From an uncultured beta proteobacterium (GTDB taxonomy: Bacteria > Pseudomonadota > Gammaproteobacteria > Burkholderiales > SG8-41): 64,000 bases of DNA. Shown here piece after piece: positions 5,714 through 32,887 of the stretch. The notes beneath the pieces were generated by a model that saw only the letters and a list, made by a program, of their open reading frames with translations, made no database searches and had not been told where the DNA came from. The position numbers and the translations under genes are program-made. The DNA is taken from the NCBI GenBank assembly GCA_903933915.1, contig CAIZLW010000108.1:2747-66746 (forward strand), given 5' to 3'. Position 1 is the stretch's first letter. Every line of letters begins with the position of its first letter.

Positions 5714-5719
5714 AACGCG

Positions 5720-7208: not shown

Positions 7209-7323
7209 CCAGCCGCACCACCCCGGCATTGCCCGGAAATCCCGTCTTCACTTGCTCCTGATCAACTCACCAGCTCTGTGCCGGCGATAGCCTTGGCCTT
7301 ACGCCTAAGGCTTTATTAACAAC

Positions 7324-7356
7324 GATTCTCATTTGAATTGCAATTGAGAACTGTTA
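7324..7356. promoter_or_regulatory. possible Fur-type operator upstream of the iron binding-protein gene
   Basis: gattctcatttgaattgcaattgagaactgtta is AT-rich with an inverted TTCTCA...TGAGAA and NATWAT-like hexamers. The match to the 19-bp Fur consensus is only partial. Confidence 0.3.
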
Positions 7357-7431
7357 TTGTTAGTATTTATCCAAGCCGTTCGACGGCCTCAGCGAATATC
7401 TAAATAAATTACTGTTTATTTTAGGATTTTT

Positions 7432-8454
7432 ATGCGTTTCGCCGGAATCATCAGTTGCGCTGTGCTCAGCGCACTCAGCCTCCCCGCGCTGGCCCAGGAA
7501 AACCTGCTGAACCTCTACTCGTCGCGCCATTACCAGACCGACGAGGCGCTCTACGCCAATTTCACCAAGACCACCGGCATCAAGCTGAACCGCATCGAAG
7601 CCGGCGAAGATCCGCTGATCGAACGCCTGAAAAATGAAGGCACCTCCAGCCCCGCCGACGTATTGGTCACCGTGGATGCCGGGAGGCTGTGGCGCGCCGA
7701 ACAGATGGGCCTGTTCCAGTCCATCGATTCGAAAGTGCTCACGGCACGCCTGCCCGACCACATGCGCACCCCCAACAACCAGTGGTTCGGCTTTTCGGCG
7801 CGGGCGCGCGTAATCATTTACAACAGAACTGCGCTCAAGGCCGCCGATGTGCAGAACTACGAAGACCTCGCCGATCCTAAACTCAAAGGCAAGGTCTGCA
7901 CCCGTTCAGGCAGCCATGTCTACAACCTGTCACTGATGAGCGCACTGATCGAACACTGGGGCGAAGCCAAGGCCGAGCAATGGGCCAGGGCTGTGGTGGC
8001 GAATTTCGCGCGCTCACCCAAAGGCGGCGACACCGACCAGATCCTCGCAGTGGCTGCCGGCGAATGCGGCGTGGCGATCAGCAACAGCTATTACTACGTG
8101 CGCCTGCTCGCCTCGGAAAAACCCGAAGACCGCAAAGCCCTCGCCAACATCGGCGTGGTCTGGCCCAACCAGAAAAGTTTCGGCACGCACATGAATGTCT
8201 CGGGTGCGGGCGTCGTCAAATACGCAAAAAACCGCGAAGCTGCAGTGAAATATCTCGAATACCTCTCCAGCGACCAGGCGCAGGGCTACTTCGCCGAGGG
8301 CAACAACGAATGGCCGGTGGTCAAAGGCGCGCCGCTGAACAACAAGGCACTGGCTTCGCTGGGCAGCTTCAAGATGGATACGCTGAATATCAGCGCGCTG
8401 GGGAAGAACCAGCCGCTGGCGCAGAAGATTTTCGACCGCGTCGGTTACAAATAA
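7432..8454 (+). CDS. fbpA: Fe(3+) ABC transporter periplasmic substrate-binding protein
   Basis: 340 aa with a signal peptide, then NLYSSRHYQTDEALY...RIEAG, typical of the FbpA/AfuA ferric-binding family. Confidence 0.8.
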   Translation: MRFAGIISCAVLSALSLPALAQENLLNLYSSRHYQTDEALYANFTKTTGIKLNRIEAGEDPLIERLKNEGTSSPADVLVTVDAGRLWRAEQMGLFQSIDSKVLTARLPDHMRTPNNQWFGFSARARVIIYNRTALKAADVQNYEDLADPKLKGKVCTRSGSHVYNLSLMSALIEHWGEAKAEQWARAVVANFARSPKGGDTDQILAVAAGECGVAISNSYYYVRLLASEKPEDRKALANIGVVWPNQKSFGTHMNVSGAGVVKYAKNREAAVKYLEYLSSDQAQGYFAEGNNEWPVVKGAPLNNKALASLGSFKMDTLNISALGKNQPLAQKIFDRVGYK

Positions 8455-8457
8455 GCG

Positions 8458-10152
8458 TCAATCTCGCTGCGACCCGCTGGCCGGCCGCAGGATCATCCGC
8501 GACAGTATGATCAACGGCAGCAGTCCCACCACGACAATGGTCAGCGCTGCCGTTGATGCTTCTGCAAGACGCTCGTCAGAGGCCAGGTTGTAAGCCTGCA
8601 CCGCGAGCGTGTCGAAATTGAAGGGGCGCATCACAAAAGTCGCCGGCAGCTCCTTCATCACATCCACAAACACCAGCAGCCCTGCCGACAGCGCGCTGCG
8701 CCACAGCAACGGTGCATGGACATGAATCAGCGTTGCGCCCGGTCCGTAACCGAGTGATCGCGCCGCATCATCCATCGATGGCGTGATCTTAGCCAGTCCG
8801 GCGTCCACTGCCTGCAGCGACACCGCAAAAAAACGCACCAGATAGGCATAGACCAGCGCGGCGATGCCGCCGGTGAGTATCAGCCCCGGCGCCACGCCGG
8901 TTGCCGCTTCGATCCAACCCGCCAGCACATGGTCGAAACGCGTCACCGGAATCAGCACACCCACCGCAATCACTGCGCCGGGCACTGCATAGCCGAGGCC
9001 GGCAATGCGATTGGACCAGCGCACCAGCGGTGTCTTTGAGGTGCGGCCGGCATAACCGACGACCAGCGCCAGCAACACCGCAAGCATTGCGGTCAACGCG
9101 GCCAGCGTCACCGTATTCCGTGTCAGCGTGACGTAGCGCGTGCCAAACTGGGCATCCCCCGAAGTCAGCGCCATATAAAGCATGATGCCGGCCGGCAACA
9201 GAAAACCGAACACCAGCGGCATCACGCAGAACGAGACCGCTGCGCCGGCGCGCCAGCCGCGCAACCGGTAGACATTGCGCAGCCGCTTGCGATGGGAGGC
9301 GCTGTGAAAGCTGGCGCCGCGCCGGCTCAGCTTTTCAATCAGCAACACGAGAAACACGAAGCTCAGCAGGATTGCCGACAACTGCGCGGCAGCCATGTGG
9401 TCGCCCAGCGAAAACCAGGCGCGGAAAATGCCCGTGGTGAAGGTCTGCACGCCGAAATAGGCGACCGTGCCGTAATCGGCCAGCGTCTCCATCAATGCCA
9501 GCGCGGTGCCTGCGACGATACCCGGACGCGCCAGCGGCAGCGCCACCTTGCGGAAGGTGCCCCACGGCCCGTAGCCGGAAACGCGCGCCACTTCGAGCAT
9601 GCTGTCGGACTGCTCGAGAAAAGCCGCGCGCGCCAGCAGGTAGACATAGGGATAAAGCACCAGCGACAGCATGATGATGGCGCCGCCCAGCGAGCGCACA
9701 TCAGGAAACCAGTAATCCTGCGCGCCCCACCCGGTCAATTCGCGCAACAGGCTCTGCACCGGACCGGCGAACTGCAGCAGATCGGTGTAGGCATACGCCA
9801 TCACGTACGCCGGCACCGCCATCGGCAACAGCAATGCCCATTCGAACAGGCGATGTCCGGGAAAGCGGCACATCGTGGTAATCCATGCGGTCGTCACACC
9901 GCCCACCATGACGCCCAGCGCAACGCCGCACATCAGCAGCAGCGAATTGCTGATGTAATCCGGCAGCACGGTTGAAGCCAGGTGATGCCAGGTATCGGTT
10001 GCCGGCGCCGTCAGATTGAACAGCACCACCAGCACCGGTAGCGCGAGCAGCGCCGCCAACCCCACCGCAAAGAGGGTCAACAAGCGCGGCCGTTGCCGGG
10101 GTGTTACCAGGGCAGTGTCTTGCAGCGTGGGCGGTAAGGTAGCGGTGGTCAC
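8458..10152 (-). CDS. fbpB: iron(III) ABC transporter permease (duplicated 2x6 TM FbpB type)
   Basis: A 564-aa polytopic membrane protein with two ABC permease EAA-like loops (EVARVSGYGPW... and DDAARSLGYGPG). It uses a GTG start. Confidence 0.8.
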   Translation of the reverse strand: MTTATLPPTLQDTALVTPRQRPRLLTLFAVGLAALLALPVLVVLFNLTAPATDTWHHLASTVLPDYISNSLLLMCGVALGVMVGGVTTAWITTMCRFPGHRLFEWALLLPMAVPAYVMAYAYTDLLQFAGPVQSLLRELTGWGAQDYWFPDVRSLGGAIIMLSLVLYPYVYLLARAAFLEQSDSMLEVARVSGYGPWGTFRKVALPLARPGIVAGTALALMETLADYGTVAYFGVQTFTTGIFRAWFSLGDHMAAAQLSAILLSFVFLVLLIEKLSRRGASFHSASHRKRLRNVYRLRGWRAGAAVSFCVMPLVFGFLLPAGIMLYMALTSGDAQFGTRYVTLTRNTVTLAALTAMLAVLLALVVGYAGRTSKTPLVRWSNRIAGLGYAVPGAVIAVGVLIPVTRFDHVLAGWIEAATGVAPGLILTGGIAALVYAYLVRFFAVSLQAVDAGLAKITPSMDDAARSLGYGPGATLIHVHAPLLWRSALSAGLLVFVDVMKELPATFVMRPFNFDTLAVQAYNLASDERLAEASTAALTIVVVGLLPLIILSRMILRPASGSQRD

Positions 10153-10214
10153 TCGATGCCGGCACCTGCAGTGCCGCAGTAGACGTAAGTTACGGAAAAA
10201 CCAAGAGAAATCAT

Positions 10215-10233
10215 TCTAACAAGAATCATTATC
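10215..10233. promoter_or_regulatory. Fur box in the divergent fbpB/fbpC intergenic region
   Basis: tctaacaagaatcattatc matches 14 of 19 positions of GATAATGATAATCATTATC by my hand alignment, with the 3-prime 13 nt matching 11/13. It sits between two iron-transport genes. Confidence 0.5.
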
Positions 10234-10258
10234 AGCAGCAAAACGGTATAATTTCGGC

Positions 10259-11329
10259 ATGCCAGCCCGTCTTGATTTCAATGACGTCTCCCACGCCTAT
10301 GAAAACACGCCCGTACTGCAAGGGGTGAGTTTTCATGTCGAACCCGGGGCGATCGCCTGCCTGCTCGGCGCCAGCGGCTGCGGCAAAACCACCGTTCTGC
10401 GCTGCATTGCCGGCTTTGAACCGATACTGGGCGGATCGGTCGCTCTGGACGGCGAGATCATGAGTGCTCCCGGCATATCCACGGCGCCGGAGCGACGGCG
10501 AATTGGCGTGGTGTTCCAGGACTACGCCCTGTTCCCCCACCTCACCGTGGCCGGCAATATCGCCTTCGGCCTGCGCCACGCAAGTACGGACGAAAGCGCC
10601 GCCCGTGTCGCCGAATTGCTGGAGATGGTCGGTCTCGGCAAAATGGGCAACAAATATGCGCACGAACTCTCCGGCGGCCAGCAGCAGCGCGTCGCACTGG
10701 CCCGGGCATTGGCGCCGCGACCGCGACTGCTGCTGCTCGACGAACCCTTCTCCAATCTTGATGTGGAAATGCGTGAACGGCTGAGCGTTGAAGTACGCGA
10801 CATTCTCAAACGTGAAAAAACCACCGCCATTCTGGTCACGCATGACCAGAATGAAGCCTTCAACATCGCCGACATGATCGGCATCATGCGCAATGGCCGC
10901 ATCGAGCAATGGGATACGCCGTACCAGCTCTATCACGAACCGCGAACGCGGTACGCCGCGGAGTTCATCGGCCAGGGCCTGTTTCTGCCCGGCGATGTGC
11001 TTGACGACGGCCGCATCCGGCTTGAAGTCGGCGAGTTCGTCCCTGATGTCGCACCGCAATGGCCCGCCGGAACGGCTGTGGATGTGCTGCTGCGACCGGA
11101 TGATGTGCTGCATGACGATTCCAGCGCCATGCAGGCCATGGTTCTGCACAAGGCCTTCCGCGGCGCCGCGTTTCTGTACACCCTGCAGCTGCCGCACGGC
11201 GGACAGGTGTATTCACTGGTGCCCAGCCATCACAACCACGCCATCGGCGAAAAAATCGGCATTCGCCTTGAACTCGACCATCTGGTCGCCTATCCGCGCG
11301 ACCCCGCGGCAGAACAGGTTCGCGGCTGA
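10259..11329 (+). CDS. fbpC: ABC transporter ATP-binding protein (iron/polyamine importer type)
   Basis: It has Walker A GASGCGKTT, the signature [15 protein letters not shown], Walker B LLLLDEP and a C-terminal TOBE-like domain. Confidence 0.85.
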   Translation: MPARLDFNDVSHAYENTPVLQGVSFHVEPGAIACLLGASGCGKTTVLRCIAGFEPILGGSVALDGEIMSAPGISTAPERRRIGVVFQDYALFPHLTVAGNIAFGLRHASTDESAARVAELLEMVGLGKMGNKYAHELSGGQQQRVALARALAPRPRLLLLDEPFSNLDVEMRERLSVEVRDILKREKTTAILVTHDQNEAFNIADMIGIMRNGRIEQWDTPYQLYHEPRTRYAAEFIGQGLFLPGDVLDDGRIRLEVGEFVPDVAPQWPAGTAVDVLLRPDDVLHDDSSAMQAMVLHKAFRGAAFLYTLQLPHGGQVYSLVPSHHNHAIGEKIGIRLELDHLVAYPRDPAAEQVRG

Positions 11330-11338
11330 TCGCTGCAG

Positions 11339-12394
11339 TCAGGGGGCGGCGCCTGCAGCAGACCGCTGACGGCGCAGTGAGGTCGCCAACTCATGCACCG
11401 CCATCGCATAGTTGATGCTGCGGTTGTATCGGGTAATTACATAAAAATTGTTCAGTCCCAGCCAGTATCGCGGCCCCGCTTCGGACTGCACCAGAAACAA
11501 TGTCGCCAGCGCCTCTTCGAGCGCAGGTTCCAGCGGCACAACGCCGCGCTTCCTGAATTCTGCGACTGCCAGATGCGGCGCAATGCCGGCGGCCAGCATC
11601 GCATCCAGCACCGTGTCGCCGACATCCACCGGCACGATCACCGGCTCGCCTTCGCGCCAGCCGAACTGGCGGTAATAATTGGCGACGCTGCCGATGGCAT
11701 CGGCAACGCGGCGCAGGTCACGCACCCCGTCGCCGTCAAAATCGACGGCATATTTGCGATAGCTGCTGGGCATGAACTGCGGAATGCCGATGGCGCCGGC
11801 GAAAGACCCCTTGAGGCTGTTCAGCGCAATACCGTTTTCGCGCGCCAGCAGCAGGTATTGCTCCAGTTCGCCGCGGAAAAATTCAGCCCTTCGCGGATAA
11901 CCGAACGCGAGTGTTGCCAGCGCATCCAGCACGCCGATGGTACCGGTGCGCCGGCCGAAGATAGTTTCAACGCCGATGGTGGACACGATCAGTTCGGGCG
12001 GCACGCGAAATTCAGCGGCAGCCTTTTCGAGCAGCGTCTGGTGTTCCGTCCAGAACTGCAGGCCAGCCTTGATGCGGGCATCGGTAATGTGGCGCAGACG
12101 GAATTCATGCCAGGGCAGCGCGGTCGCCGGCGCATCCATCGCACGAATGATCGAACCCAGATGCCGGGTCTCACGAAAGGCTTTTTCCAGAGCGGCGCGG
12201 TCAAAACCATGCCGGTCCGTCATATCCTGCACAAACGCACGGATCTCCGGCTCCAATTCACCCCTTGGCGCCGGTGTCGCAGCGATGGCATACGGCACCG
12301 CCATCAGCAGCAAGGCGGCCAGGGCCGGCAACAACCGGGAATATCGTTTCGTCACTCCGGATCGAGGCTGCCATGCACGGGGGATCACGTGCAC
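11339..12394 (-). CDS. mltB: lytic murein transglycosylase B
   Basis: It has a signal peptide, the GVETIFGRRTG motif, GAIGIPQFMPSSYRKYAVDFDGDG and NFYVITRYNRS, the hallmarks of the MltB family. Confidence 0.85.
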   Translation of the reverse strand: MHVIPRAWQPRSGVTKRYSRLLPALAALLLMAVPYAIAATPAPRGELEPEIRAFVQDMTDRHGFDRAALEKAFRETRHLGSIIRAMDAPATALPWHEFRLRHITDARIKAGLQFWTEHQTLLEKAAAEFRVPPELIVSTIGVETIFGRRTGTIGVLDALATLAFGYPRRAEFFRGELEQYLLLARENGIALNSLKGSFAGAIGIPQFMPSSYRKYAVDFDGDGVRDLRRVADAIGSVANYYRQFGWREGEPVIVPVDVGDTVLDAMLAAGIAPHLAVAEFRKRGVVPLEPALEEALATLFLVQSEAGPRYWLGLNNFYVITRYNRSINYAMAVHELATSLRRQRSAAGAAP

Positions 12395-12479: not shown

Positions 12480-12962
12480 CTAGCTGGATCGGGATGATGA
12501 GGAAGAACTGCCCGAGGATGCGCCGCCCTCTTCGAAACGCGGCGGCGGGGCAAGATTCGGATACGGATCAACCACAGCGCCCTTGCCTAAGGTATGCATC
12601 GACAACAGCGTGCGGCCGATGGCCAGCCATTGTTCGCGCGCCGGGGTCGGCATCGATTCGTAGGTCTTGATCAAACCGACAACGTCCCCGTCTGCGAGAT
12701 CTATCTGCGCGGGCGCCGTGTCGCCGACGGCCAGCCAGCGCGCGCGTACCTGCAGCGCATCGGCAACCTTGTAGAGGTTTTCATGGGTCATGTTCTTGGT
12801 GTCGCCGTTGATCCAGCGATGCACCGTCTGACGCGGCAGGCCGATGCGGCGCCCCAGTTCCGCAACCGATTTCATGCCGCAGGCTGACATTGCAGTACGA
12901 ATGCGCGCAGCGATTGATTTAGCGGGGTCAACCGGCTCTGCTTTGATGCGTCCTCGGCCCAT
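12480..12962 (-). CDS. XRE-family helix-turn-helix DNA-binding protein with Ser-rich C-terminal tail
   Basis: The HTH is MKSVAELGRRIGLPRQTVHRWINGD and the C-terminus ends GGASSGSSSSSSRSS. Confidence 0.65.
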   Translation of the reverse strand: MGRGRIKAEPVDPAKSIAARIRTAMSACGMKSVAELGRRIGLPRQTVHRWINGDTKNMTHENLYKVADALQVRARWLAVGDTAPAQIDLADGDVVGLIKTYESMPTPAREQWLAIGRTLLSMHTLGKGAVVDPYPNLAPPPRFEEGGASSGSSSSSSRSS

Positions 12963-13146: not shown

Positions 13147-14202
13147 CTACAAATCGATACGCCGCATTACCGCGCGACTGTTGCCGAAACAAGGGATGTA
13201 AACGGAGTGCGTCCCGGGCCCGCCCGCAACAATCAAATGAATGTCTTCCGGGCGCGGCGAAATCGGCAACAGCGTATCGTCGCGCAACTCGCCCAGTTCC
13301 GGTGTCCGCGAAGCGCGGGCGCGGTCGATCTCCTTGGCACTGAGATGTTTCACAGCCATCTTTGAGCGCTCCCACAACTCGCGTTTAACGGCGGCTTTAT
13401 CCCACCCCTCGCGGCGGAAAATTTCCGCGTGTTCGCTGCCGAGAATGAACCACGGCTCCCCGCCGTGCACATATTCATTACTGGTCGGGTGAATCATCGT
13501 CTCGGCGATGACCCGCGCCAGTTCAACGGCACCTTTGGCGTGGGTATTCATGTTCATCGTACCCTCGGCGCCGACCACCGTCACCGTGCTGTCGCCAATC
13601 GCAAAGCCGCGTTCGACGTGCAGTGGCTGCCAGGGATGATTTTGTTCATTCTCGGCACAGCAGAATGTGAATTTCCCGGGCTGCCCGTGCGTTGCGCGGT
13701 CCATTTCACCGGGCCAGGCGCCGCCGATGTTCTGCAGGATCAGGCGCAGCGCACGACCCAGCGTGGCGTTGGCCCAGTGGCCCTGGCCGATGCAGTTGAA
13801 GCTTGCGTTCACCTGCAGCTGCTGCGCGACCGGACCATTGAGCACCAGCCACACCGCAACCGGGTTGGTGGTCGCCTGGATGCCCTGCAGATTGAATTCG
13901 GGATCGGACACCGCCTCGGTCGCTGCAATCAGCACCGGCAGATATTCGGGATCACAACCGGCCATCACCGCATTGATGGCGATGCGCTCCACCGTGGCAG
14001 CGCCGAACCCCGGCGCCACACGTGCCACGAGTTCATGGCGGCCGCGGCGGCTGTGCGTCAGCATCCGTTCGACCCGCGCCGCCGTCGGCGGCACAATGGG
14101 CAAACCGTCGCTCCAGCGACGTTCACGGTAAAGCCGGTTGATGGCATCCAGATCGTCGGCAACGTCGAAGGAAGCGGCACGATCAATCATGGGTTCGCTC
14201 AT
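13147..14202 (-). CDS. uncharacterised partner protein of the UGSC selenoprotein (351 aa; DGLPIVPPT / NAVMAGC motifs)
   Basis: The ATG at 14202 overlaps the upstream stop as ATGA, with GGAGAG 7 nt upstream. It begins MSEPMIDR... It is clearly paralogous to residues ~215-567 of the fused protein at 18403..20106, sharing SDGLPIVPPT, A(I/V)N(A/G)VMAGC.PEY.PVL.AA.EA and (L/I)LNGPV. Confidence 0.8.
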   Translation of the reverse strand: MSEPMIDRAASFDVADDLDAINRLYRERRWSDGLPIVPPTAARVERMLTHSRRGRHELVARVAPGFGAATVERIAINAVMAGCDPEYLPVLIAATEAVSDPEFNLQGIQATTNPVAVWLVLNGPVAQQLQVNASFNCIGQGHWANATLGRALRLILQNIGGAWPGEMDRATHGQPGKFTFCCAENEQNHPWQPLHVERGFAIGDSTVTVVGAEGTMNMNTHAKGAVELARVIAETMIHPTSNEYVHGGEPWFILGSEHAEIFRREGWDKAAVKRELWERSKMAVKHLSAKEIDRARASRTPELGELRDDTLLPISPRPEDIHLIVAGGPGTHSVYIPCFGNSRAVMRRIDL

Positions 14203-14744
14203 CGCTGCTCTCCAGCCAGCAGTTTCGCGATGTCCGCCACACACTGCTCTGCGATCTTGCGTACATCCTCACGGCTGCGTCCGCCGAACGGATGCGGAAT
14301 CACCGCAATCGGCAACTTGCTGTTGCCCAGCGCACGCGCCTGCGCCCGGCCCAGGGTCTGAAACGCCGCGGAACAAACGGTCAGGGCCTGCTTGCCGTGT
14401 TTGGTCACTTCGATGCTGTCGTGGACACTCCACGACGCGCAGGATCCTCAGTCCCCGGATCCCGCAATCACCACATCACATTCAAGCGACAGCGCTGCAA
14501 TCACTGCCGGATCGGCAGGAATCGAGGCCGATGATTTGCGGCGTTTTATGACTTTGGCAACGCCATAACGCGACTGCAGAAGTTCGGCCAGGTCATCGGC
14601 CAGATGATTGAAATTCGGCTTTGCGTTGTCGATGAAGCCGACCGTCGCGCCAGCCAGTCCACGCAGGGTCGAGTGTGCAGCCGCAGCCTGCGTGTCGCCA
14701 GCGTGCGGCGCAGTCGGATCAAATAGCGTCAGAGTTCGCATCAT
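14199..14744 (-). CDS. UGSC-motif selenoprotein (181 codons; selenocysteine at codon 99 encoded by TGA 14450-14448)
   Basis: Two same-frame ORF-track pieces (14448..14783 and 14199..14408) are separated only by a TGA. Read-through gives ...DVVIAGSGD-U-GSCASWSVHDSIEVTKHG.... The ATG at 14744 has AGGA 5 nt upstream. The downstream piece has no SD or ATG of its own. A paralog at 19791 has the same U-G-S-C context. Confidence 0.8.
14418..14436 (-). promoter_or_regulatory. SECIS-like hairpin for the locus-1 UGA
   Basis: The mRNA reads GUCGUGGA-GUG-UCCACGAC, a perfect 8-bp stem with a GU-containing apical loop. It begins exactly 11 nt 3-prime of the UGA. Confidence 0.65.
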
Positions 14745-14772: not shown

Positions 14773-15750
14773 TCAGGGATCAAGCCGGATGTTGGCCTGC
14801 TTCACCAGCCGGGTCCACATCTGGATTTCCTTGCCGATGAAAGCCTGCAGTTCCTGCGGCGAGTTGCCGACCGGGGTTGCGCCCAGCGCGAGCAGCTGTT
14901 CGCGCATTTGCGACGCAGCCAGCGACTTCACGGTCTCGGCGTGGACGCGATTGATGACGGCGGGCGCAGTCCGCGCCGGCGCCAGCAACGCGTACCACAG
15001 CGTCGATTGATAACCCGGTACCGTCTCGGAAACTGCGGGAATGTCGGGATAAGCTGGTGACCGTGCGAGACTGGTCATGCCCAGTGCGCGCAACCGGCCA
15101 CTCTTCACATGGGGCATCGAAGGCAAGGGACTGGTGCAGATGATCTGCACCTGCCCAGCCACCACGTCGACCAGCGCGGGTCCCGCGCCCTTGTACGGAA
15201 TGTGTACAACGTTGATACCGGTCAGCGACTGCAGCAGCTCCACCGACATGTGACCGCCAGAACCGGGACCGGACGAGGCGTAATTGATACGGCCTGGCTG
15301 TGCCTTGGCCGCGGCAATCAGCTCCCGGATGCTGCCGACCTTGAGTGAAGGATGCGCCACAAACACCAGCGGCGACTCGGCCACCAGCGTGATCGGCACA
15401 AAATCCTTCAGCGTGTCGTAAGGCAGGTTATTACGCAGCGCCGGGTTGATCGAATGCGTCGCGCTCGCGAGGAACAGCGTGTAGCCATCCGGTGCCGCGC
15501 CTGCGGCAATTTGCGTGGCAATGACCTGCCCGCCGCCGCCACGGTTGTCATTGACCATCTGCTGTCCGAATGCCGTGCTCAGGCTACCAGCAAGCATGCG
15601 GCCGACGATGTCCCCCGCGCCACCGGGCGGATACGGGATGATCAGCCGGATCGGGCGTTGCGGATAACTGTCGGCGGCAAAAACTGAAAACGCGGCGCCT
15701 GACAACAATCCTGATACCAGGACGGTGCATAAAACGAGTTTTTTTACCAT
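14773..15750 (-). CDS. Bug-family (TctC-like) tripartite tricarboxylate transporter substrate-binding protein
   Basis: A signal peptide is followed by YPQRPIRLIIPYPPGGAGD, the canonical Bug N-terminal motif. Its stop is 29 nt upstream of the UGSC gene on the same strand. Confidence 0.9.
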   Translation of the reverse strand: MVKKLVLCTVLVSGLLSGAAFSVFAADSYPQRPIRLIIPYPPGGAGDIVGRMLAGSLSTAFGQQMVNDNRGGGGQVIATQIAAGAAPDGYTLFLASATHSINPALRNNLPYDTLKDFVPITLVAESPLVFVAHPSLKVGSIRELIAAAKAQPGRINYASSGPGSGGHMSVELLQSLTGINVVHIPYKGAGPALVDVVAGQVQIICTSPLPSMPHVKSGRLRALGMTSLARSPAYPDIPAVSETVPGYQSTLWYALLAPARTAPAVINRVHAETVKSLAASQMREQLLALGATPVGNSPQELQAFIGKEIQMWTRLVKQANIRLDP

Positions 15751-16253: not shown

Positions 16254-16354
16254 TTGGTTGCTCTGCCAGCAGCCAAGCTACCAAATCCACCCCCTGCTGT
16301 CACGATTGAGCCGGTGTAAACTCGTGTGACACCTCTACACCCTCCGGAGACTTG

Positions 16355-17143
16355 ATGATGAGCGCCTATCCCAATCACACCAAACAGCAGTTGGCTGCCG
16401 GCAAAATCGCCGTAGGCATGGGACTGCGCCTCGCCCGCACGGTGGATATCGCCACCATCGGAAAAACCTGCGGCTATGACTGGCTGTTCATCGACATGGA
16501 ACATAACTCGATGGATGTGGACACCGCTGCGCAAATCGCGATGGCCGCGCTGCCGGTGGGCATTACGCCGATCGTGCGCGTCCCCGGCAAGGAGCACCAC
16601 CATGCTTCGCGACTGCTGGATGCAGGCGCACAGGGCATCGTGGTGCCGCATGTCGATACCATCGAGGAGGCCGAGCGCGCCGTGGCCTACTGCAAATATC
16701 CGCCCATCGGCCACCGTTCGGTGATGGGCGTGCTGCCGCAGTTCGGCTATCGCAACCTGCCCGTTGCCGATTCAGCCCCGATCGCCAACGCCCAGACCAT
16801 GGTCATCATCATGCTCGAAACCCCCGATGCCATCGCACAGGCCGATGCCTTTGCCGCCGTACCCGGCGTCGACTCCATACTGATCGGCACCAATGATCTG
16901 TGCGCCGAGATGGGCATCCCCGGACAGTTCACCGACCCGCGCGTCGAAGACGCCTACCGCAAGGTGATTGCCGCCTGCCGCAAGAACAATATCCATCCTG
17001 GAATGGGCGGCGTCTATGAACCGAAGCTGCTCGAGAAATACATCGGCATGGGCATGCGCTTCATTCTCGGCGGCGGCGACATGAGTTTCCTGATGGCCGG
17101 CGCCCGCGATCGCGCCAGCTTTCTCCACGGCCTGAAACTGTAG
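16355..17143 (+). CDS. HpcH/HpaI-family 2-keto-3-deoxy-acid aldolase
   Basis: Contains GYDWLFIDMEHNSMD, RVPG....ASRLLDAGAQGIVVPHV and YPP.GHRS. The ATG follows a GGAGA SD. Confidence 0.85.
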   Translation: MMSAYPNHTKQQLAAGKIAVGMGLRLARTVDIATIGKTCGYDWLFIDMEHNSMDVDTAAQIAMAALPVGITPIVRVPGKEHHHASRLLDAGAQGIVVPHVDTIEEAERAVAYCKYPPIGHRSVMGVLPQFGYRNLPVADSAPIANAQTMVIIMLETPDAIAQADAFAAVPGVDSILIGTNDLCAEMGIPGQFTDPRVEDAYRKVIAACRKNNIHPGMGGVYEPKLLEKYIGMGMRFILGGGDMSFLMAGARDRASFLHGLKL

Positions 17144-17176
17144 GCCACTACGCAATCTTTAACGAGATATCTCCAC

Positions 17177-18343
17177 ATGGTCCGTATTGTCGACGTCCGC
17201 GAAGTCACCAAACCGATCGCCTCGCCGATCCGCAACGCCTATATCGATTTCAGCAAAATGACCACCAGCTTGGTCGCCGTGGTCACCGACGTCAAAGTCG
17301 ACGGTCGCACGGTGGTGGGCTACGGCTTTAACTCCAACGGCCGCTACGGTCAGGGCGGGCTGATCCGCGAACGTTTTGCGCCGCGCCTGTTGGAAGCCGA
17401 TCCGAAAAACCTGCTGGATGAAAGCGGCAGCAATATCGATCCGCACCGCGCGTGGGACGCGATGATGATCAACGAAAAACCCGGCGGCCACGGCGAACGT
17501 TCGGTTGCGGTCGGCACGCTGGACATGGCGATCTGGGATGCCGTCGCCAAAATCGCACGCAAACCGCTGTTTCGTCTGCTCGCCGAAAAACACGGCGTCA
17601 CCGCCAATCCGAAAGTATTCGTCTACGCCGCCGGCGGTTACTACTACCCCGGCAAGGACCTGCAGGCGTTGCGTGCAGAGATGCGCAGTTACCTCGACCG
17701 CGGCTACAACGTCGTCAAGATGAAAATCGGCGGCGCTGATCTGGCTGAAGATTGCCGCCGCATCGAAGCCGTGCTGACCGAGATCGGCACCAGCGCACAA
17801 CTGGCGGTCGACGCCAACGGGCGTTTTGATCTGGAAACCGGAATCGCCTATGCGAAGGCGCTGCGCGAATATCCGCTGTTCTGGTACGAGGAAGTCGGTG
17901 ACCCGCTGGATTTTGCACTGCAAGCCGCACTCGCCGAGTTCTACCCGGGGCCGATGGCCACCGGTGAAAACCTGTTCAGCCACCAGGACGCGCGCAATCT
18001 GCTGCGTTACGGCGGCATGCGCCCGGACCGCGACTGGCTGCAGTTCGACTGCGCACTGTCCTACGGCTTGTGCGAATACGAACGCACGTTGCGTGAACTC
18101 AATATTGCCGGCTGGTCGCCGTCACGCTGCATCCCCCACGGCGGCCACCAGATGTCGCTGAATATCGCCGCCGGACTGGGCTTGGGCGGTAATGAAAGTT
18201 ACCCCGACCTGTTCCAGCCCTACGGCGGATTCCCCGACGGCGTGCGTGTTGAAAACGGCAAGATCACCATGCCGGAACTGCCGGGCATCGGCTTTGAGGG
18301 CAAATCGGATCTGATCAAGGTGATGCGCGAACTGGCGGAGTAA
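17177..18343 (+). CDS. enolase-superfamily (mandelate racemase/muconate lactonizing) enzyme, D-tartrate dehydratase-like
   Basis: The N-terminus is VRIVDVREVTKPIASPIRNAYIDFSKMTTSLVAVVTD...GYGFNSNGRYGQGGLIRERF, followed by MINEKPGGHGERSVAVGTLDMA.WDAVAKIA.KPLF. From memory this closely resembles Bradyrhizobium TarD. The specific activity is inference. Confidence 0.7.
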   Translation: MVRIVDVREVTKPIASPIRNAYIDFSKMTTSLVAVVTDVKVDGRTVVGYGFNSNGRYGQGGLIRERFAPRLLEADPKNLLDESGSNIDPHRAWDAMMINEKPGGHGERSVAVGTLDMAIWDAVAKIARKPLFRLLAEKHGVTANPKVFVYAAGGYYYPGKDLQALRAEMRSYLDRGYNVVKMKIGGADLAEDCRRIEAVLTEIGTSAQLAVDANGRFDLETGIAYAKALREYPLFWYEEVGDPLDFALQAALAEFYPGPMATGENLFSHQDARNLLRYGGMRPDRDWLQFDCALSYGLCEYERTLRELNIAGWSPSRCIPHGGHQMSLNIAAGLGLGGNESYPDLFQPYGGFPDGVRVENGKITMPELPGIGFEGKSDLIKVMRELAE

Positions 18344-18360
18344 GGCAAAAGCACCAAAGA

Positions 18361-18386
18361 AAACGGGCGCCGCGGCGCCCGTTTTC
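18361..18386. terminator. bidirectional rho-independent terminator between convergent genes
   Basis: The stem acgggcgc/gcgcccgt has A-run and T-run flanks (aaacgggcgccgcggcgcccgtttt). Confidence 0.7.
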
Positions 18387-18402: not shown

Positions 18403-20106
18403 TTATTGACCCGACATCTTGATGGCCTTGCAAACCGGGAAGCCCAGCACGCCGTTATGAGCGAATACGTAGATGCTGTTGCGTCCCAGATCGCCCGTCA
18501 CCACCACCTGAAAATCCTCCGACTTCCACACCAGCGGCACCAGGCGCTGCGGATCGTCGGATTCGTGGAACATCTGCGGAATCCGTCCGGCCTGATGTTC
18601 CTCGGCCAGATTCCAGGTCGGCTTCTGCGTCCAGTCGCGGAGGATTTTTTCGAACATGTGCGCTGGCATCCGCGCCTGCCTGAACAATTCTTCGCGGAAT
18701 TTCTCCTTCGACCAACCACCTGCGGCAATGGTCTCGGCAATGATCGGAGACAGCAGCAGCAGCGGCCGCAGCGTGTCATAACCCTGTCCCACCGAAAACA
18801 TAATCTGCCAGGAATACTGACGCACGACGGCATCCGCGATATACGGCATCAACTCTTCGGGCGTGGCGCCGGATACCGAGGAGATGTGATTTCCGCCGGT
18901 ATAACGGCCAACCGACAGCGCATTGCTGCCCGCAGCGAATCCGTAATCGACACAATTCGGCGTCCAGCCGATTTTTGCAACCACATCCTCGTTTTCTGCA
19001 ACCACGACTCGCCAGGTATTGCCGAACGTAGCCTTGTCATTCTTGTGCGGCAGGAAGCCGGCAACGTTACGCAGATACAGGCGCCAGAAACGACCGACGC
19101 TGGTGTTGGCCTGAAAGCCGTCACGCATCACGCCTTGGGTATAGTTGAATCCCAATGCTTTGATGACCGGTCCGTTGAGAATAATCAGGTTGTCACCACC
19201 CGGCGTATTGCCGCTGTGTTCAACACCGTAATCGTGATCGGCCATGGCCTCGACCGCGGCCACCAGCACCGGCATGTATTCGGGACGGCATCCCGCCATC
19301 ACGCCATTGACCGCCACGCTCCACACCGTCGCCGCACGGTTGTCGGGCAGCATCACGCCCAGCACCTCATCGGCCTTGCGGTCGGTGTGGCGCAGAAACG
19401 CTTCCACCTTCTCAACCGTCGGCGGCACGATGGGCAGACCGTCGGACAGCTCATGCTTGAGGAAATACTCGTTCACTTCCTCAAACGTGCCGCTGCAGAT
19501 GACATCACGAGCGCCGGGTTCACCGCCAACGGTCGCCGCGGCAGGCATTTTGAACAAAGCATTGAGCACGCCATCCAGCGTCAGTTCGCGCACATTCTGC
19601 TGCAGCGCTTTCTTGCTTTGCAGGCCGGGATGGCCGCGCACGGGCGCCACCGCGATATTGGGATACCCCAATCCCAGCGACGCCGCCTTGGCCAGCGTCA
19701 TGAAACTCTCGCACACCAGCGTCGCTGACGGAATACCCGCCGTTTCAGCCGCCACACTGGCCCGCAACACGGCGGGCGTGCAGCTCCCTCAACAACCCAT
19801 CCCGGAGACGACGGCGTCGGCTCCGAGTTCTTTGAGCTTTTGCGGAAGATTGGCAACCACATTGCGTTCGTCGCTGCCGTGGGTGTTGCCGAACAGATCC
19901 CAGTGCAGGAATTTCACGCCGGGGAAACATTCGCGCATGCTGGCCTCGAGTTGCTCGAACACCTCGTTGCCGCGAAACACGTAATCCCAGACCCACGCTA
20001 CCGTCTTGCCTTCGAGCGTGTCCAAGCGCTTGGCCAGCGGCTTGACCTTGGCCTGACGCGGGCCGCGCGGCCACAGCGCGGCGTATTGAGAAGCTGAATC
20101 TGTCAT
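18403..20106 (-). CDS. fused UGSC-selenoprotein / partner-domain protein (567 codons; selenocysteine at codon 106 encoded by TGA 19791-19789)
   Basis: ORF-track pieces 19789..20130 and 18403..19770 are in the same frame. Read-through gives ...DAVVSGMGC-U-GSCTPAVLRASVAAETAGIPSATLVCESF.... The N-terminal ~190 residues are homologous to the 14199..14744 product and the rest to the 13147..14202 product. The ATG at 20106 has AAGGAA upstream. Confidence 0.8.
19760..19777 (-). promoter_or_regulatory. SECIS-like hairpin for the locus-2 UGA
   Basis: The mRNA reads GCCCGC-CGUGUU-GCGGGC, a 6-bp GC stem extendable by CAC/GUG across a 2-nt bulge. It begins exactly 11 nt 3-prime of the UGA, and its loop shares GUGU with the locus-1 hairpin. 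Confidence 0.6.
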
Positions 20107-20253
20107 TTGAAAATTCCTTGCGTGTTGCAAAAAATACAGGATAACGGATCAGCCAATCAGCGACCAGTCGCAGCGCACGTGTTAGCCTTGGATTTCGTCA
20201 TCAGACATCGCAATGTTCCGCGATGCGGACACCGCAAACTTCTGGAGCTGTAA

Positions 20254-21027
20254 ATGTCCGTTCAATTTTCAGACAAGACCGCAATCGTGACCGGCAGCGG
20301 TAACGGTATTGGTGCCGCGATCGCCCATCGCCTCGCTGCAGCCGGTGCCAGTGTGATGCTGGCTGACAATAACGAGGAATCCGCGCATGCCGTTTGCGCT
20401 GAAATCACCGCAGCCGGCGGTCGGGCCGCTGCCTGCAAGGTCGATATCCGCATCCCCGAAGAAGTGCAGGCGATGATCGATTACTCGCGGGAAATGTTCG
20501 GCCCCGCCAACATCCTGATCAATAACGCAGGGCTCGGATCGCAGAAACACTTTCTGGAAACGCCGCTGGCGATGCTGCATCAGATGCTGGAGGTCAACGT
20601 CGTCGGCACCTTCCTCTGCTCGCAGGCCGCCGCACACGACATGATCGAAATGGGCGGCGGACGTATCGTCAACTTTTCATCGCATTCCGGCCTGCTGGGC
20701 AGCAGCGGACGCGCCGCCTATGCCGCCGCAAAAGGCGGGATCATCGCCATGACCCGTGCAATGGCCATCGACCTGGCTCAATACAACATCACAGTAAACG
20801 CCGTGGCGCCGGGACCGATCGACGTCCAGCGCAATCGCAATCAGCACTCGGAAGAGCGTCGGGAAGCATGGCGGCAAGCCGTGCCGCTGGGTCGTTACGG
20901 CGATCCGGATGAAGTTGCGGCAGTGGCGGTTTTTCTGGCTTCCGACGATGCCAGTTATGTCAACGGACAGACCATTTCGGTGGACGGTGGCTTTACGGCT
21001 GCGGGGCTTCGCGTCAAGAATCTCTGA
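20254..21027 (+). CDS. SDR-family oxidoreductase (FabG-like)
   Basis: TGSGNGIG cofactor motif, NNAG, and the YAAAKGG catalytic YxxxK motif. Confidence 0.9.
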
Positions 21028-21787: not shown

Positions 21788-21877
21788 TGGCGGAGAGGGT
21801 GGGATTCGAACCCACGATACGCTTGCGCGTATTCCGGTTTTCGAGACCGGTACATTCAACCACTCTGCCACCTCTCC
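21788..21877 (-). tRNA. tRNA-Ser (anticodon CGA)
   Basis: Hand-folded cloverleaf: acceptor GGAGAGG/CCTCTCC plus discriminator G plus CCA; anticodon stem CCGGT/ACCGG with loop CU-CGA-AA; long variable arm ATACGC-GCAA-GCGTAT; T-arm GTGGG-TTCGAAT-CCCAC. Confidence 0.92.

Positions 21878-21929: not shown

Positions 21930-24254
<2,325 letters not shown>

Positions 24255-30834: not shown

Positions 30835-31842
<1,008 letters not shown>

Positions 31843-32524: not shown

Positions 32525-32887
<363 letters not shown>

What the first reader, a model, noticed from the sequence alone, without database searches (positions are those of the whole stretch)
18403..20130. Rosetta-stone fusion: second UGSC selenoprotein fused to the partner-protein domain (locus 2)
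ORF fragments 19789..20130 and 18403..19770 share a frame across TGA 19791-19789. Read-through gives ...GADAVVSGMGC-U-GSCTPAVLRASVAAETAGIPSATLVCESF....

The N-terminal ~190 residues align with the locus-1 selenoprotein: L.G.TV..., D.V(I/V).G.G.UGSC, and hydrophobic-V-P...HP(F/G)G. Residues ~215-567 align with the separate 351-aa locus-1 partner: SDGLPIVPPT, VN.VMAGC.PEY.PVL.AA.EA and ILNGPV.

Two genes that are translationally coupled in locus 1 (ATGA overlap at 14202-14199) are therefore one polypeptide here. This is strong evidence that the two modules act together physically. The hairpin GCCCGC-CGUGUU-GCGGGC again begins exactly 11 nt after the UGA, and its loop shares GUGU with locus 1. 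A 567-codon selenoprotein of this architecture is, as far as I know, functionally uncharacterised.
Basis: partly seen in the sequence, partly recalled or inferred. Interest (0 to 1): 0.9.

Follow-up and report, generated by a model that had tools for sequence, protein, structure and literature searches.

The report
UGSC selenoprotein fused to its partner
This is a real 567-codon selenocysteine-containing gene in which a small "UGSC" redox module is fused to the protein that it always accompanies elsewhere. The family and this fusion were already described in 2008, and what the enzyme does is still unknown.

Summary
On the minus strand, 20106..18403 is one 567-codon frame with a single in-frame TGA (19791-19789) in the motif GMGC-U-GSC.

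- **Domains.** Residues 11-175 match Pfam UGSC (PF24696). Residues 208-547 match the separate 351-aa locus-1 partner (32% identity, E 2e-46).
- **SECIS.** A hairpin starts exactly 11 nt after the UGA. Across 47 relatives, synonymous sites are frozen only inside that hairpin.
- **Pairing.** In two surveys (160 public loci plus this window), essentially every UGSC module sits next to this partner. The partner lies downstream, upstream or fused. Most instances in the first survey carry TGA at the U position.

The Rosetta-stone reading is therefore supported, but it is not new. Zhang & Gladyshev (2008) reported a "UGSC/Unknown_1" fusion, and NCBI already names full-length Cys forms "UGSC family (seleno)protein". 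Function remains uncharacterised.

New leads from this work:
- The Sec core resembles that of GrdB/PrdB reductase selenoproteins (hhalign probability 94%).
- The module looks flavodoxin-like rather than thioredoxin-like.
- The partner folds confidently (AF2) but has no Pfam or PDB relative.
- Thioredoxin-reductase-like genes share an operon with it in several lineages.

My best guess is a Sec/Cys-dependent reductase acting on imported organic acids.

The parts
18403..20106 (-). Fused UGSC-partner selenoprotein gene: 567 sense codons (Sec at codon 106) plus stop
   Evidence: Translation. Pfam UGSC hit at residues 11-175. Partner similarity at residues 208-547. The same continuous frame occurs in 68 other fused genes.
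19789..19791 (-). In-frame UGA read as selenocysteine (U of the UGSC motif)
   Evidence: TGA aligns with TGA in 72 related UGSC modules and with TGC/TGT (Cys) in 17. Full-length Cys-form proteins have CG(S/T/A/G)C here.
19751..19784 (-). SECIS-like hairpin. The inner stem GCCCGC/GCGGGC (19777-19772 / 19765-19760) has loop CGUGUU and begins 11 nt after the UGA. The outer stem is GCUGCAC/GUGUGGC.
   Evidence: Fold. The inner stem is paired in 91.5% of cells across 47 relatives, against 36-54% when the register is slid. Synonymous-codon entropy is 0.37-0.94 bits inside the hairpin and 1.46-1.82 bits in flanking codons. A Cys form with the same TPAVLRA peptide uses CGC for Arg, which breaks the stem.
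19582..20076 (-). UGSC module (residues 11-175): alternating beta/alpha fold, with the U-x-x-C between a beta strand and the following helix
   Evidence: Pfam PF24696, 86.4 bits. AF2 secondary structure of the Cys homolog P0122. Weak flavodoxin-like Foldseek matches. hhalign to GrdB/PrdB-like reads gives probability 93.8%.
18406..19485 (-). Partner ('Unknown_1'-type) domain (residues 208-567), with conserved DGLP..PPT, N(G/A)VMAGC, NGP, AN..GR and AENE motifs
   Evidence: BLASTP to the locus-1 partner. Invariant columns. No Pfam hit, even at E<5. No PDB relative by sequence or fold.
18355..18382 (-). GC-rich palindrome ACGGGCGCCGCGGCGCCCGT followed by a T-tract: a likely intrinsic terminator shared with the convergent gene
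   Evidence: Read directly from the sequence. The consensus scan did not report it, probably because the loop is too short.
14199..14744 (-). Locus-1 stand-alone UGSC selenoprotein (181 codons, UGA at 14450-14448, SECIS stem 14436-14418)
   Evidence: Translation. Pfam UGSC E 3e-46 and NCBIfam NF041046 122 bits. The hairpin type shows compensatory changes in 6 of 8 pairs, and 0 of 500 shuffles reach the observed values.
13147..14202 (-). Locus-1 stand-alone partner protein (351 aa), with a start that overlaps the UGSC stop (ATGA)
   Evidence: Translation. AF2 pLDDT 85, pTM 0.89. More than 6000 homologs; all named ones among the 120 listed are 'hypothetical protein'.
14773..15750 (-). TctC/Bug-family solute receptor directly upstream of locus 1
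   Evidence: Pfam PF03401, E 2e-65. TctC genes occur in 22 of 81 related loci.
16352..18343 (+). HpcH/HpaI-type aldolase (16352..17143) and enolase-superfamily acid-sugar-dehydratase-like gene (17177..18343), convergent with the fused gene
   Evidence: Pfam and NCBIfam hits. A close relative has the same gene order.
20254..21027 (+). SDR-family dehydrogenase, divergent from the fused gene
   Evidence: Pfam adh_short_C2, E 3e-65. An SDR is also adjacent in Chelativorans and in 8 of 81 loci.

Best explanation
The gene encodes one cytoplasmic two-module selenoenzyme.

**Step 1 (shown by comparative data).** UGA-106 is recoded to selenocysteine by a SelB-type SECIS hairpin that starts 11 nt downstream. 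Translation therefore continues through the whole 567-codon frame.

**Step 2 (shown).** The N-terminal UGSC module and the C-terminal partner domain form an obligate functional pair. In other genomes they are encoded as adjacent genes in either order, as at locus 1 of this window, or as one chain.

**Step 3 (inferred).**
- The UGSC module is an alternating beta/alpha, flavodoxin-like domain.
- Its U-x-x-C sits just before a helix.
- This core is distantly homologous to the Sec-containing core of the GrdB/PrdB selenoproteins of the glycine and proline reductases.
- It would cycle between selenol/thiol and selenenylsulfide.

**Step 4 (inferred).** The partner domain has a fold with no solved relative and an invariant Cys in N(G/A)VMAGC, plus conserved Asp, Thr, Asn, Arg and Glu. 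It would bind the substrate and perform the chemistry together with the selenol.

**Step 5 (inferred from gene neighbourhoods).**
- Reducing equivalents would come from NAD(P)H through a dedicated thioredoxin-reductase-like flavoprotein where one is encoded in the operon. Here they would come from the general thioredoxin system (TrxB at 30880..31842).
- The substrates would be di- or tri-carboxylic or sugar acids taken up by TctC-type transporters. They would be processed alongside aldolase, dehydratase, SDR and MmgE/PrpD enzymes.
For: **Read-through and SECIS.**
- One continuous frame with a single TGA.
- TGA at this column in 72 of 90 related modules, and Cys codons in 17.
- Continuous 560-590-aa Cys forms are abundant.
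- The hairpin sits at a fixed 11-nt spacing in both subtypes.
- Mean MFE of the 45 nt after the codon is -19.3 for TGA forms and -12.6 for Cys forms.
- Synonymous-site freezing is confined to the hairpin.
- Covariation in the sister subtype: 6 of 8 pairs, 0 of 500 shuffles.

**Obligate pair.** AF2 of a full-length Cys form gave pLDDT 93.8 and pTM 0.93, which indicates one compact two-domain body.

**GrdB/PrdB relation.**
- hhalign gave probability 93.8%, E 1.7e-7, over 68 columns, with U on U and C on C.
- 21 reversed or shuffled controls scored 18.9 or less, against 57.4.
- Two of the three comparison reads tested are GRDB PF07355 members.

**Fold.** The only matches to the N-terminal module with Foldseek probability of about 0.9-0.99 are flavodoxin-like domains, and no thioredoxin fold is among the top 50.

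**Redox partner.**
- TrxR-like genes with a CAxC motif score TIGR01292 216-320 bits, below the 343 cutoff.
- They lie directly upstream of the fused gene, or in line downstream of it, in L010, L011, L012, L013, L015, L022 and L032.
- They lie divergent to it in L084 and L086.

**Substrate context.** TctC occurs in 22 loci, MmgE/PrpD in 9, SDR in 8 and ThDP enzymes in 6. In the window and in Chelativorans the order is HpcH - fused gene - SDR.
Against: - No experiment exists on any member.
- No Sec machinery (selA/B/C/D) was seen in the window, although only 30 of its ORFs were scanned.
- The GrdB/PrdB similarity covers only about 68 residues, and Pfam GRDB itself does not hit.
- The partner shows no similarity to the pyruvoyl subunits PrdA/GrdE, so the analogy may stop at the redox motif.
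- Most loci lack a dedicated TrxR-like gene.
- Many Cys forms in Bacteroidales, Lentisphaeria and Bacillota carry signal peptides or wall anchors (P0159, P0199, P0219). An NAD(P)H-driven cycle would not work outside the cell.
- Some members keep Sec but have Ser at the resolving-Cys position (uGSS/uGTS in L050, L063, L075), or have lost the motif altogether (P0128). The partner Cys is invariant throughout.
- I could not read model coordinates, so the distance between the Sec and the partner's Cys is unknown.
Confidence: 0.55

Rival explanations
1. The UGA is a true stop. The locus would make a 105-aa N-terminal fragment and a separate 455-aa protein started at GTG 19770, as automatic gene callers annotate it.
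For: Public gene calls for close relatives are split in exactly this way: a 105-aa ORF and a 455-aa ORF. A GAGGGAG stretch lies 13 nt upstream of GTG 19770.
Against: - The break falls inside one Pfam domain, between a beta strand and the helix that carries the motif.
- The frame is maintained across the TGA in 51 other fused genes.
- Cys-codon homologs are continuous.
- RNA-level constraint exists precisely on the hairpin after the UGA.
- GTG 19770 lies inside that hairpin, and the GAGGGAG stretch spans the UGA and the conserved Gly-Ser codons that follow it.
Confidence: 0.03
2. The pair is a non-redox enzyme, such as an isomerase, epimerase, lyase or hydrolase for organic acids. The Sec/Cys and the partner's invariant Cys would act as nucleophile or acid-base catalysts, with no net electron transfer and no external reductant needed.
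For: - Most loci lack a dedicated reductase.
- Predicted secreted or wall-anchored Cys forms exist.
- Variants keep Sec but lose the resolving Cys.
- The neighbours are mostly non-redox carbon-skeleton enzymes: MmgE/PrpD, enolase superfamily and HpcH.
- The weak top fold hits for the partner are hydrolases and isomerase-like folds.
Against: - The U/C-x-x-C motif just before a helix is a classic redox arrangement, and it is retained in at least 90% of members.
- TrxR-like genes are operon-linked in at least 7 loci from several phyla.
- There is homology to the redox core of GrdB/PrdB.
- Bacterial Sec is used overwhelmingly in redox sites (reviews).
Confidence: 0.2
3. The UGSC module is a dedicated thioredoxin-like electron carrier. 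It would only reduce a disulfide or sulfenate on the partner's invariant Cys, for example to reactivate it, and would not touch the substrate.
For: - It is a small separate protein in most genomes.
- The order TrxR-like, then UGSC, then partner resembles a TrxR-Trx-target relay.
- The partner Cys is more conserved than the UGSC motif.
- Stand-alone partner paralogs lie next to fused genes and could share a single carrier.
Against: The strict 1:1 adjacency and the repeated fusion suggest a stable complex rather than a diffusible carrier. GrdB/PrdB, the closest relatives, use their Sec directly on the substrate (established biochemistry, from my own knowledge).
Confidence: 0.17
4. The gene is a pseudogene, or the TGA is an assembly error.
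For: None beyond the presence of an in-frame stop.
Against: The same TGA occurs in 72 independent assemblies from several phyla. Dozens of 93-97% identical copies occur in public metagenomes. There are no other frame disruptions.
Confidence: 0.01

Closest known systems
UGSC-containing (seleno)protein family (Pfam PF24696, NCBIfam NF041046), and the 'UGSC/Unknown_1' fusion of Zhang & Gladyshev 2008 (PMC2398784)
   Same: - The U-G-S-C motif, with Sec or Cys at the first position.
- Abundance in non-marine aquatic bacteria.
- An N-terminal UGSC module fused to a conserved domain that carries a conserved Cys and also exists as a separate protein.
- Unknown function.
   Different: Nothing essential: this gene is a member. 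The stand-alone equivalog model NF041046 scores only 42.9 bits on the fused form (cutoff 125). The fused 'TPAV(L/M)RA' subtype is therefore a distinct subfamily from the stand-alone 'TSWSVHD' subtype at locus 1. The published guess of a thioredoxin-like fold is not borne out by the AF2 model.
Selenoprotein B components of glycine/sarcosine/betaine reductase and D-proline reductase (GrdB, PrdB; Pfam GRDB PF07355)
   Same: - The same local architecture: hydrophobic strand, U-x-x-C, helix, G-I-P-(T/S)-V strand, helix, then a P...(H/Y)P.G loop.
- Significant profile-profile similarity, with Sec aligned to Sec.
- Thioredoxin-reductase-type genes in the neighbourhood.
- Function together with a second, larger subunit.
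   Different: - Only about 68 residues align, and there is no Pfam GRDB hit.
- The large N-terminal GRDB region is absent.
- The partner is unrelated to the pyruvoyl proproteins PrdA/GrdE.
- The hosts are mostly aerobic Proteobacteria, Actinomycetota and Chloroflexota rather than amino-acid-fermenting clostridia.
- The genomic context points to organic acids, not Stickland substrates.
Thioredoxin / thioredoxin reductase relay
   Same: A C(U)-x-x-C motif just before a helix. A TrxR-like flavoprotein with a CAxC motif is encoded beside it in several lineages.
   Different: The fold is flavodoxin-like rather than a thioredoxin fold. The module is tied to one specific partner protein rather than serving many targets.
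E. coli fdhF-type bacterial SECIS element
   Same: A stem-loop inside the coding region, immediately 3' of the UGA. Its upper stem starts 11 nt after the UGA, and a G/U-rich apical loop contains GU.
   Different: The sequence differs, and no Rfam family matched. Binding by SelB is untested.

Membership tests
UGSC family (Pfam PF24696) | Match to the family HMM above the gathering score | tested here: met
   86.4 bits against a cutoff of 25, residues 11-175. Locus 1 scores 158 bits.
UGSC family (Pfam PF24696) | U/C-G-S-C motif, with Sec or Cys at the first position | tested here: met
   GMGC-U-GSC at codons 102-109. The column holds TGA in 72 relatives and Cys codons in 17.
UGSC_fam equivalog (NCBIfam NF041046, stand-alone ~150-185 aa form) | Score at or above the curated cutoff of 125 bits | tested here: not met
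   The fused gene scores 42.9 bits. The locus-1 gene scores 122.1 bits, just under the cutoff. NCBI nevertheless names full-length fused Cys forms 'UGSC family (seleno)protein'.
UGSC/Unknown_1 fusion (Zhang & Gladyshev 2008) | UGSC module fused to a conserved domain that has a conserved Cys and stand-alone homologs | tested here: met
   Architecture. Invariant Cys in VMAGC. Stand-alone homologs.
UGSC/Unknown_1 fusion (Zhang & Gladyshev 2008) | Sequence identity of 'Unknown_1' with the domain found here | not testable with these tools
   Figure S1A is held only as an image, and the stored dataset is truncated before the UGSC entries. In my surveys every fused UGSC module is fused to this same domain.
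Bacterial SelB-dependent selenoprotein gene | In-frame UGA aligned with Cys in homologs | tested here: met
Bacterial SelB-dependent selenoprotein gene | Stem-loop immediately 3' of the UGA, conserved at the RNA level | tested here: met
   11-nt spacing and 91.5% pairing. Synonymous-site constraint limited to the hairpin. Covariation in the sister subtype.
Bacterial SelB-dependent selenoprotein gene | selA, selB, selC (tRNA-Sec) and selD present in the genome | tested here: inconclusive
   No tRNA-Sec in the window, and none of the 30 window ORFs scanned is a sel gene. The rest of the genome is not available.
Bacterial SelB-dependent selenoprotein gene | Selenium actually incorporated into the protein | not testable with these tools
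   Needs 75Se labelling or mass spectrometry.
GrdB/PrdB selenoprotein B (Pfam GRDB PF07355) | Match to the GRDB HMM | tested here: not met
   No GRDB hit, even at E<10 or among 22 members at E<5.
GrdB/PrdB selenoprotein B (Pfam GRDB PF07355) | Homologous Sec-containing U-x-x-C core | tested here: met
   hhalign probability 93.8%, E 1.7e-7. Controls gave probability below 1%.
GrdB/PrdB selenoprotein B (Pfam GRDB PF07355) | Works with a pyruvoyl proprotein subunit (PrdA/GrdE, Pfam PF09338) | tested here: not met
   The partner domain has no Pfam hit at all. No direct profile comparison with PF09338 was possible.
Thioredoxin-fold oxidoreductases (the published guess for UGSC) | Thioredoxin fold | tested here: not met
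   The AF2 model (pLDDT 93.8) shows an alternating beta/alpha domain. The best Foldseek matches are flavodoxin-like domains, and none of the top 50 is a thioredoxin fold. All matches are weak, with E at or above 1e-3.

The most novel reading that the evidence does not exclude
The UGSC module and its partner domain would together form a previously unrecognised class of selenium- or thiol-dependent reductases.

- It would be evolutionarily linked to the B components of the clostridial glycine and proline reductases.
- It would be widespread in aerobic freshwater, soil and groundwater bacteria, and in Cys form in gut anaerobes.
- A catalytic domain of new fold would reductively transform imported organic acids.
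- Electrons would come from a dedicated thioredoxin-reductase-like flavoprotein.
Probability: 0.3. Interest if true: 0.75.

Novelty: new member of a known kind. Interest (0 to 1): 0.4.

Why it matters
UGSC proteins are among the most abundant selenoproteins in non-marine aquatic metagenomes (PMC2398784), yet nearly 20 years after their prediction no function is known. The gene here adds nothing new as an object.

The comparative work around it does turn "unknown selenoprotein" into testable statements:
- It is one half of an obligate two-protein enzyme.
- Its Sec core is related to GrdB/PrdB.
- Its partner is a large family, with more than 4000 representative clusters, that has no Pfam model and no solved structure.
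- A dedicated TrxR-like reductase and organic-acid catabolic genes travel with it.

Cultured carriers exist: Vineibacter terrae carries a Sec form, and Chelativorans alearense, Nocardioides sediminis and Actinacidiphila reveromycinica carry Cys forms. Biochemistry is therefore feasible. The locus is also a reminder that gene callers split these genes into two ORFs.

Tried and rejected
1. **Direct family assignment of the partner domain.** All of these were negative:
   - Pfam and NCBIfam at default thresholds;
   - Pfam at E<10 and on 22 members at E<5;
   - phmmer and profile searches of PDB sequences;
   - Foldseek against the PDB for the whole fused model and for the isolated partner model.
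   The best Foldseek hits were E 1e-3 to 1e-2 with TM about 0.2 (FtsZ, Toblerone-fold cyanuric acid hydrolases, PurM-like proteins). I treat these as noise.
2. **Partner as a permuted relative of GrdB/PrdB.** hhalign of the partner profile against PrdB-like reads gave probability 0.8%. Rejected.
3. **Reading 'Unknown_1' from Figure S1A and Dataset S1 of the 2008 paper.** The panel is an image and the stored dataset is cut, so identity with the domain here is inferred, not shown.
The 455-aa ORF and a Cys-form homolog (P0122) were used instead.
5. **Covariation test on this locus's own hairpin type.** The stem is too invariant to show covariation. I replaced the test with a synonymous-codon entropy analysis.
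6. **Sec machinery in the window.** None was found among the ORFs scanned.
7. **Distance between the Sec position and the partner's invariant Cys in the AF2 model.** Coordinates are not exposed.
8. **Rfam.** No SECIS family matched.
Full report
**1. The observation.**

On the minus strand, ATG 20106 (preceded by AAGGA) opens a frame that runs to the stop at 18405-18403. It contains one internal stop codon, TGA 19791-19789, at codon 106 within GADAVVSGMGC-U-GSCTPAVLRA.

- Residues 11-175 match Pfam PF24696 'UGSC family' (E 3e-24). The NCBIfam equivalog NF041046 scores only 42.9 bits against a cutoff of 125.
- Locus 1 consists of a 181-codon UGSC gene (14744..14199, TGA at 14450-14448, PF24696 E 3e-46) and a 351-aa gene (14202..13147). 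The second gene's ATG overlaps the UGSC stop.
- BLASTP aligns fused residues 208-547 with partner residues 18-336 (32% identity, E 2e-46). It aligns fused residues 93-178 with locus-1 UGSC residues 86-171 (29% identity, E 6e-7).
- Both UGAs are followed, after exactly 11 nt, by a GC-rich hairpin.

**2. Is the UGA decoded?**

Single-sequence folding is unimpressive (z-scores -1.8 and -2.0), and Rfam has no matching family. The comparative evidence is strong.

I fetched 80 genome loci that encode relatives of the partner domain. I then scanned six-frame translations with HMMs of my own for the two modules. Among 90 UGSC modules, including the two in this window, the U column is TGA in 72 and TGC/TGT in 17.

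In 51 TGA cases and all 17 Cys cases, the partner domain follows in the same frame. The 45 nt after the codon fold to a mean of -19.3 kcal/mol in TGA forms and -12.6 in Cys forms.

For this gene's subtype (motif G.G.UGSCTPAV(L/M)RA; 47 sequences):
- The 6-bp inner stem is paired in 91.5% of cells, against 36-54% when the register is slid. It is too invariant to show covariation.
- I therefore measured synonymous-codon entropy. It is 1.68 and 1.46 bits in the Gly and Ser codons of the spacer, and 0.37-0.94 bits in the six codons (T P A V L R) that form the hairpin. It is 1.69-1.82 bits in the next five codons.
- A Cys-form relative with the same TPAVLRA peptide (L042, Nocardioides sediminis) uses CGC for Arg, which breaks the stem.

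For the locus-1 subtype (22 sequences), the 8-bp stem is 94.3% paired. Six of its eight pairs show compensatory changes, and 0 of 500 shuffles reach the observed values.

An upper stem-loop starting 11 nt after the UGA matches the minimal fdhF SECIS of E. coli (my own knowledge). I conclude that the UGA encodes Sec. The rival reading of two separate products is improbable. It would cut a single domain between a strand and the helix that bears the motif.

**3. Are the two modules a pair?**

The first survey was seeded on the partner, so I ran a second one seeded on the UGSC motif alone (pattern DCG[SG]CT[ST]W, which finds Cys forms; metagenome contigs). Of 84 UGSC modules:

| Arrangement | Count |
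|---|---|
| Partner gene immediately downstream | 48 |
| Partner gene immediately upstream (gaps 14-74 nt) | 22 |
| Fused | 7 |
| Too little contig downstream to tell | 5 |
| No partner seen, module within 100 nt of the contig's upstream end | 2 |

Every evaluable UGSC gene is therefore paired with this partner, in either order or fused.

Fusion occurs in both subtypes. Examples are P0258, L059, L062, L065, L067 and L071 for the locus-1 subtype.

AlphaFold2 of a full-length Cys form was confident: pLDDT 93.8, pTM 0.93. The model used P0122, which is 573 aa and 49% identical to the window protein, with a 100-sequence alignment. A pTM that high for two modules implies a defined mutual arrangement. 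The Rosetta-stone inference is supported.

**4. What is known already.**

- UGSC-containing proteins were predicted as selenoproteins in the mid-2000s. They were noted as 'of unknown function'.
[quoted passage not shown] - I could not read the figure, which is an image. In my surveys this is the only domain ever fused to UGSC.
- Reviews from 2022 and 2026 still list the family as uncharacterised.
- Full-length Cys forms in Chelativorans alearense, Actinacidiphila reveromycinica, Nocardioides sediminis and Aquamicrobium are named 'UGSC family (seleno)protein' by NCBI or UniRef.
- Close relatives of the window gene (93-97% identical) are common in Burkholderiales and Betaproteobacteria metagenome bins. 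They are called there as 455-aa ORFs truncated at the UGA.

So this is a new member of a known kind.

**5. What the modules are.**

*UGSC module.* The AF2 model shows alternating strands and helices, with the U-x-x-C between strand 104-110 and helix 115-128. Foldseek against the PDB finds nothing at E<1e-3. The local matches with a probability of about 0.9-0.99 are flavodoxin-like domains: the flavodiiron flavodoxin domain, FMN azoreductases and the MetH B12 domain. None is a thioredoxin fold.

The segment around the Sec looked like the GrdB/PrdB selenoproteins, so I took 20 'proline reductase/GrdB' reads from the 2008 paper's dataset. Two of the three I tested are bona fide Pfam GRDB members.

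I compared profiles of these reads and of UGSC. hhalign gave probability 93.8%, E 1.7e-7, over 68 columns, with Sec on Sec and Cys on Cys. One reversed and 20 column-shuffled controls scored at most 18.9, against 57.4. Pfam GRDB itself does not hit UGSC, so this is a distant relationship of the Sec core only.

*Partner domain.*
- The family exceeds 4000 representative clusters at E<1e-3, which is the listing cap, and 518 clusters at E<1e-30.
- The window copy has more than 6000 homologs. All named ones among the 120 listed are 'hypothetical protein'.
- It has no Pfam or NCBIfam model and no relative among PDB sequences.
- The isolated locus-1 partner folds with pLDDT 85 and pTM 0.89. Its best Foldseek hit has E 0.01 and TM about 0.2. 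It therefore has no solved structural neighbour.
- Conserved columns include DGLP..PPT, N(G/A)VMAGC.PEY.P, NGP, AN..GR, N and AE(N/D)E. The Cys of MAGC is invariant in all 100 aligned sequences. The UGSC cysteines are only at least 90% conserved.

**6. Context.**

Both loci in the window sit in one ~8-kb cluster:

| Coordinates | Strand | Gene |
|---|---|---|
| 12962..12480 | - | HTH regulator |
| 14202..13147 | - | partner |
| 14744..14199 | - | UGSC |
| 15750..14773 | - | TctC/Bug receptor |
| 16352..17143 | + | HpcH/HpaI aldolase |
| 17177..18343 | + | enolase-superfamily acid-sugar-dehydratase-like |
| 20106..18403 | - | fused gene |
| 20254..21027 | + | SDR |

A 97%-identical relative has the same gene order.

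Clustering the neighbours over 81 loci gave these counts:

| Neighbour family | Loci |
|---|---|
| TctC/Bug (53 genes) | 22 |
| MmgE/PrpD | 9 |
| SDR | 8 |
| Thioredoxin-reductase-like flavoprotein with CAxC | 8 |
| ThDP enzymes | 6 |
| PEP-mutase/isocitrate-lyase family | 4 |

The TrxR-like genes score 216-320 bits on TIGR01292, below the 343 cutoff. The window's housekeeping TrxB at 30880..31842 scores 388.7. The TrxR-like genes lie directly upstream of the fused gene, or downstream behind a stand-alone partner paralog, in several lineages:
- Acidobacteria (L010);
- Alphaproteobacteria (L011, L013, L015, and L032 = Vineibacter terrae);
- Burkholderiales (L012);
- Lachnospiraceae (L022).

They lie divergent to it in Actinacidiphila and Aquamicrobium.

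In Chelativorans the fused gene sits between an HpcH-type lyase and an SDR. That cluster also holds CoA-transferase, MaoC hydratase, acyl-CoA dehydrogenase and MmgE/PrpD genes, and a second fused copy lies nearby.

**7. Mechanism proposed.**

*Shown:* Sec recoding and obligate pairing.

*Inferred:* a selenol/thiol to selenenylsulfide cycle on the UGSC module. It would be re-reduced by a TrxR-like flavoprotein or by the general thioredoxin system. It would act together with the partner's Cys-containing pocket on an imported carboxylate.

The analogy is with GrdB/PrdB, where Sec attacks the substrate bound on the large subunit and a Cys resolves the adduct (established biochemistry, my own knowledge).

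*Caveats:*
- Predicted secreted or wall-anchored Cys forms exist (P0159 with LPxTG, P0199, P0183, P0219).
- Some variants carry U-G-S-S or U-G-T-S (L050, L063, L075).
- Motif-less paralogs exist (P0128; L022).
- Most loci lack a dedicated reductase.
- The partner shows no similarity to PrdA/GrdE.

A non-redox catalytic role, or a pure electron-carrier role for UGSC, remains possible.

**8. Verdict.**

The finding is real and correctly interpreted, but the family and the fusion are already in the literature and in RefSeq naming. Interest is moderate. It lies in the unexplained function of a very abundant selenoprotein pair, and in the leads obtained here:
- the GrdB/PrdB-like core;
- a fold that is not thioredoxin-like;
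- a partner with no Pfam or PDB neighbour;
- TrxR-like operon partners.

Noticed in passing
L011, L012, L014, L015, L018, L019, L032 (about 200 nt downstream of each fused gene): A second, stand-alone partner-domain paralog follows the fused gene. In L011, L012, L015 and L032 it is in turn followed by a thioredoxin-reductase-like gene. This looks like a conserved three-gene operon, and it includes the cultured Vineibacter terrae.
   Followed up: partly
L050, L063, L075 (UGSC motif column): These relatives keep the TGA (Sec) but have Ser instead of the second Cys (U-G-T-S / U-G-S-S). A selenenylsulfide within the motif is therefore impossible there. The invariant Cys of the partner might be the real redox mate.
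   Followed up: no
P0159, P0199, P0183, P0219; L047-L049, L053-L057, L060, L064, L066, L074, L079, L080: Cys forms with the motif GNGGCG(L/I)CTPKE occur in Bacillota, Bacteroidales, Lentisphaeria, Verrucomicrobia, Planctomycetota and Treponema. The four long proteins carry signal peptides. Some also have an LPxTG anchor, extra partner-domain copies or copper-amine-oxidase-like stalk domains. These are apparently extracytoplasmic versions of the same pair.
   Followed up: no
P0200, P0245, P0261: Proteins of about 710-740 aa consist of two tandem partner domains and no UGSC module.
   Followed up: no
L022 (Lachnospiraceae MAG), 661..11605: Three fused paralogs lie within 12 kb: one with Cys (CCGTC), one without the motif and one with Sec (TGA). 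A TrxR-like gene lies immediately upstream of the Sec copy.
   Followed up: partly
window 21788..21877 and 21930..23477 (minus strand): tRNA-Ser(CGA) lies next to a 515-aa seryl-tRNA synthetase. Its Pfam domains start only at residue 91, so the ORF as listed has an N-terminal extension of about 90 residues or a mis-set start.
   Followed up: no
window 44798..46384 and 48228..49679 (plus strand): Two MmgE/PrpD-family genes. The same family is a recurrent neighbour of UGSC-partner genes elsewhere (9 of 81 loci).
   Followed up: no
window 32738..34594 (plus strand): A 618-aa ORF with no Pfam hit. It overlaps by 4 nt the start of a FemAB-like gene (34591..35709).
   Followed up: no
window 48001..52000: GC content dips to 0.52-0.55, against about 0.60 elsewhere in the window.
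   Followed up: no
window 18403..19770 and 19789..20130; relatives P0001-P0120: Public gene calls systematically split this selenoprotein into a ~105-aa ORF and a 455-aa ORF. Protein databases therefore hold hundreds of N-terminally truncated entries for the Sec forms.
   Followed up: yes
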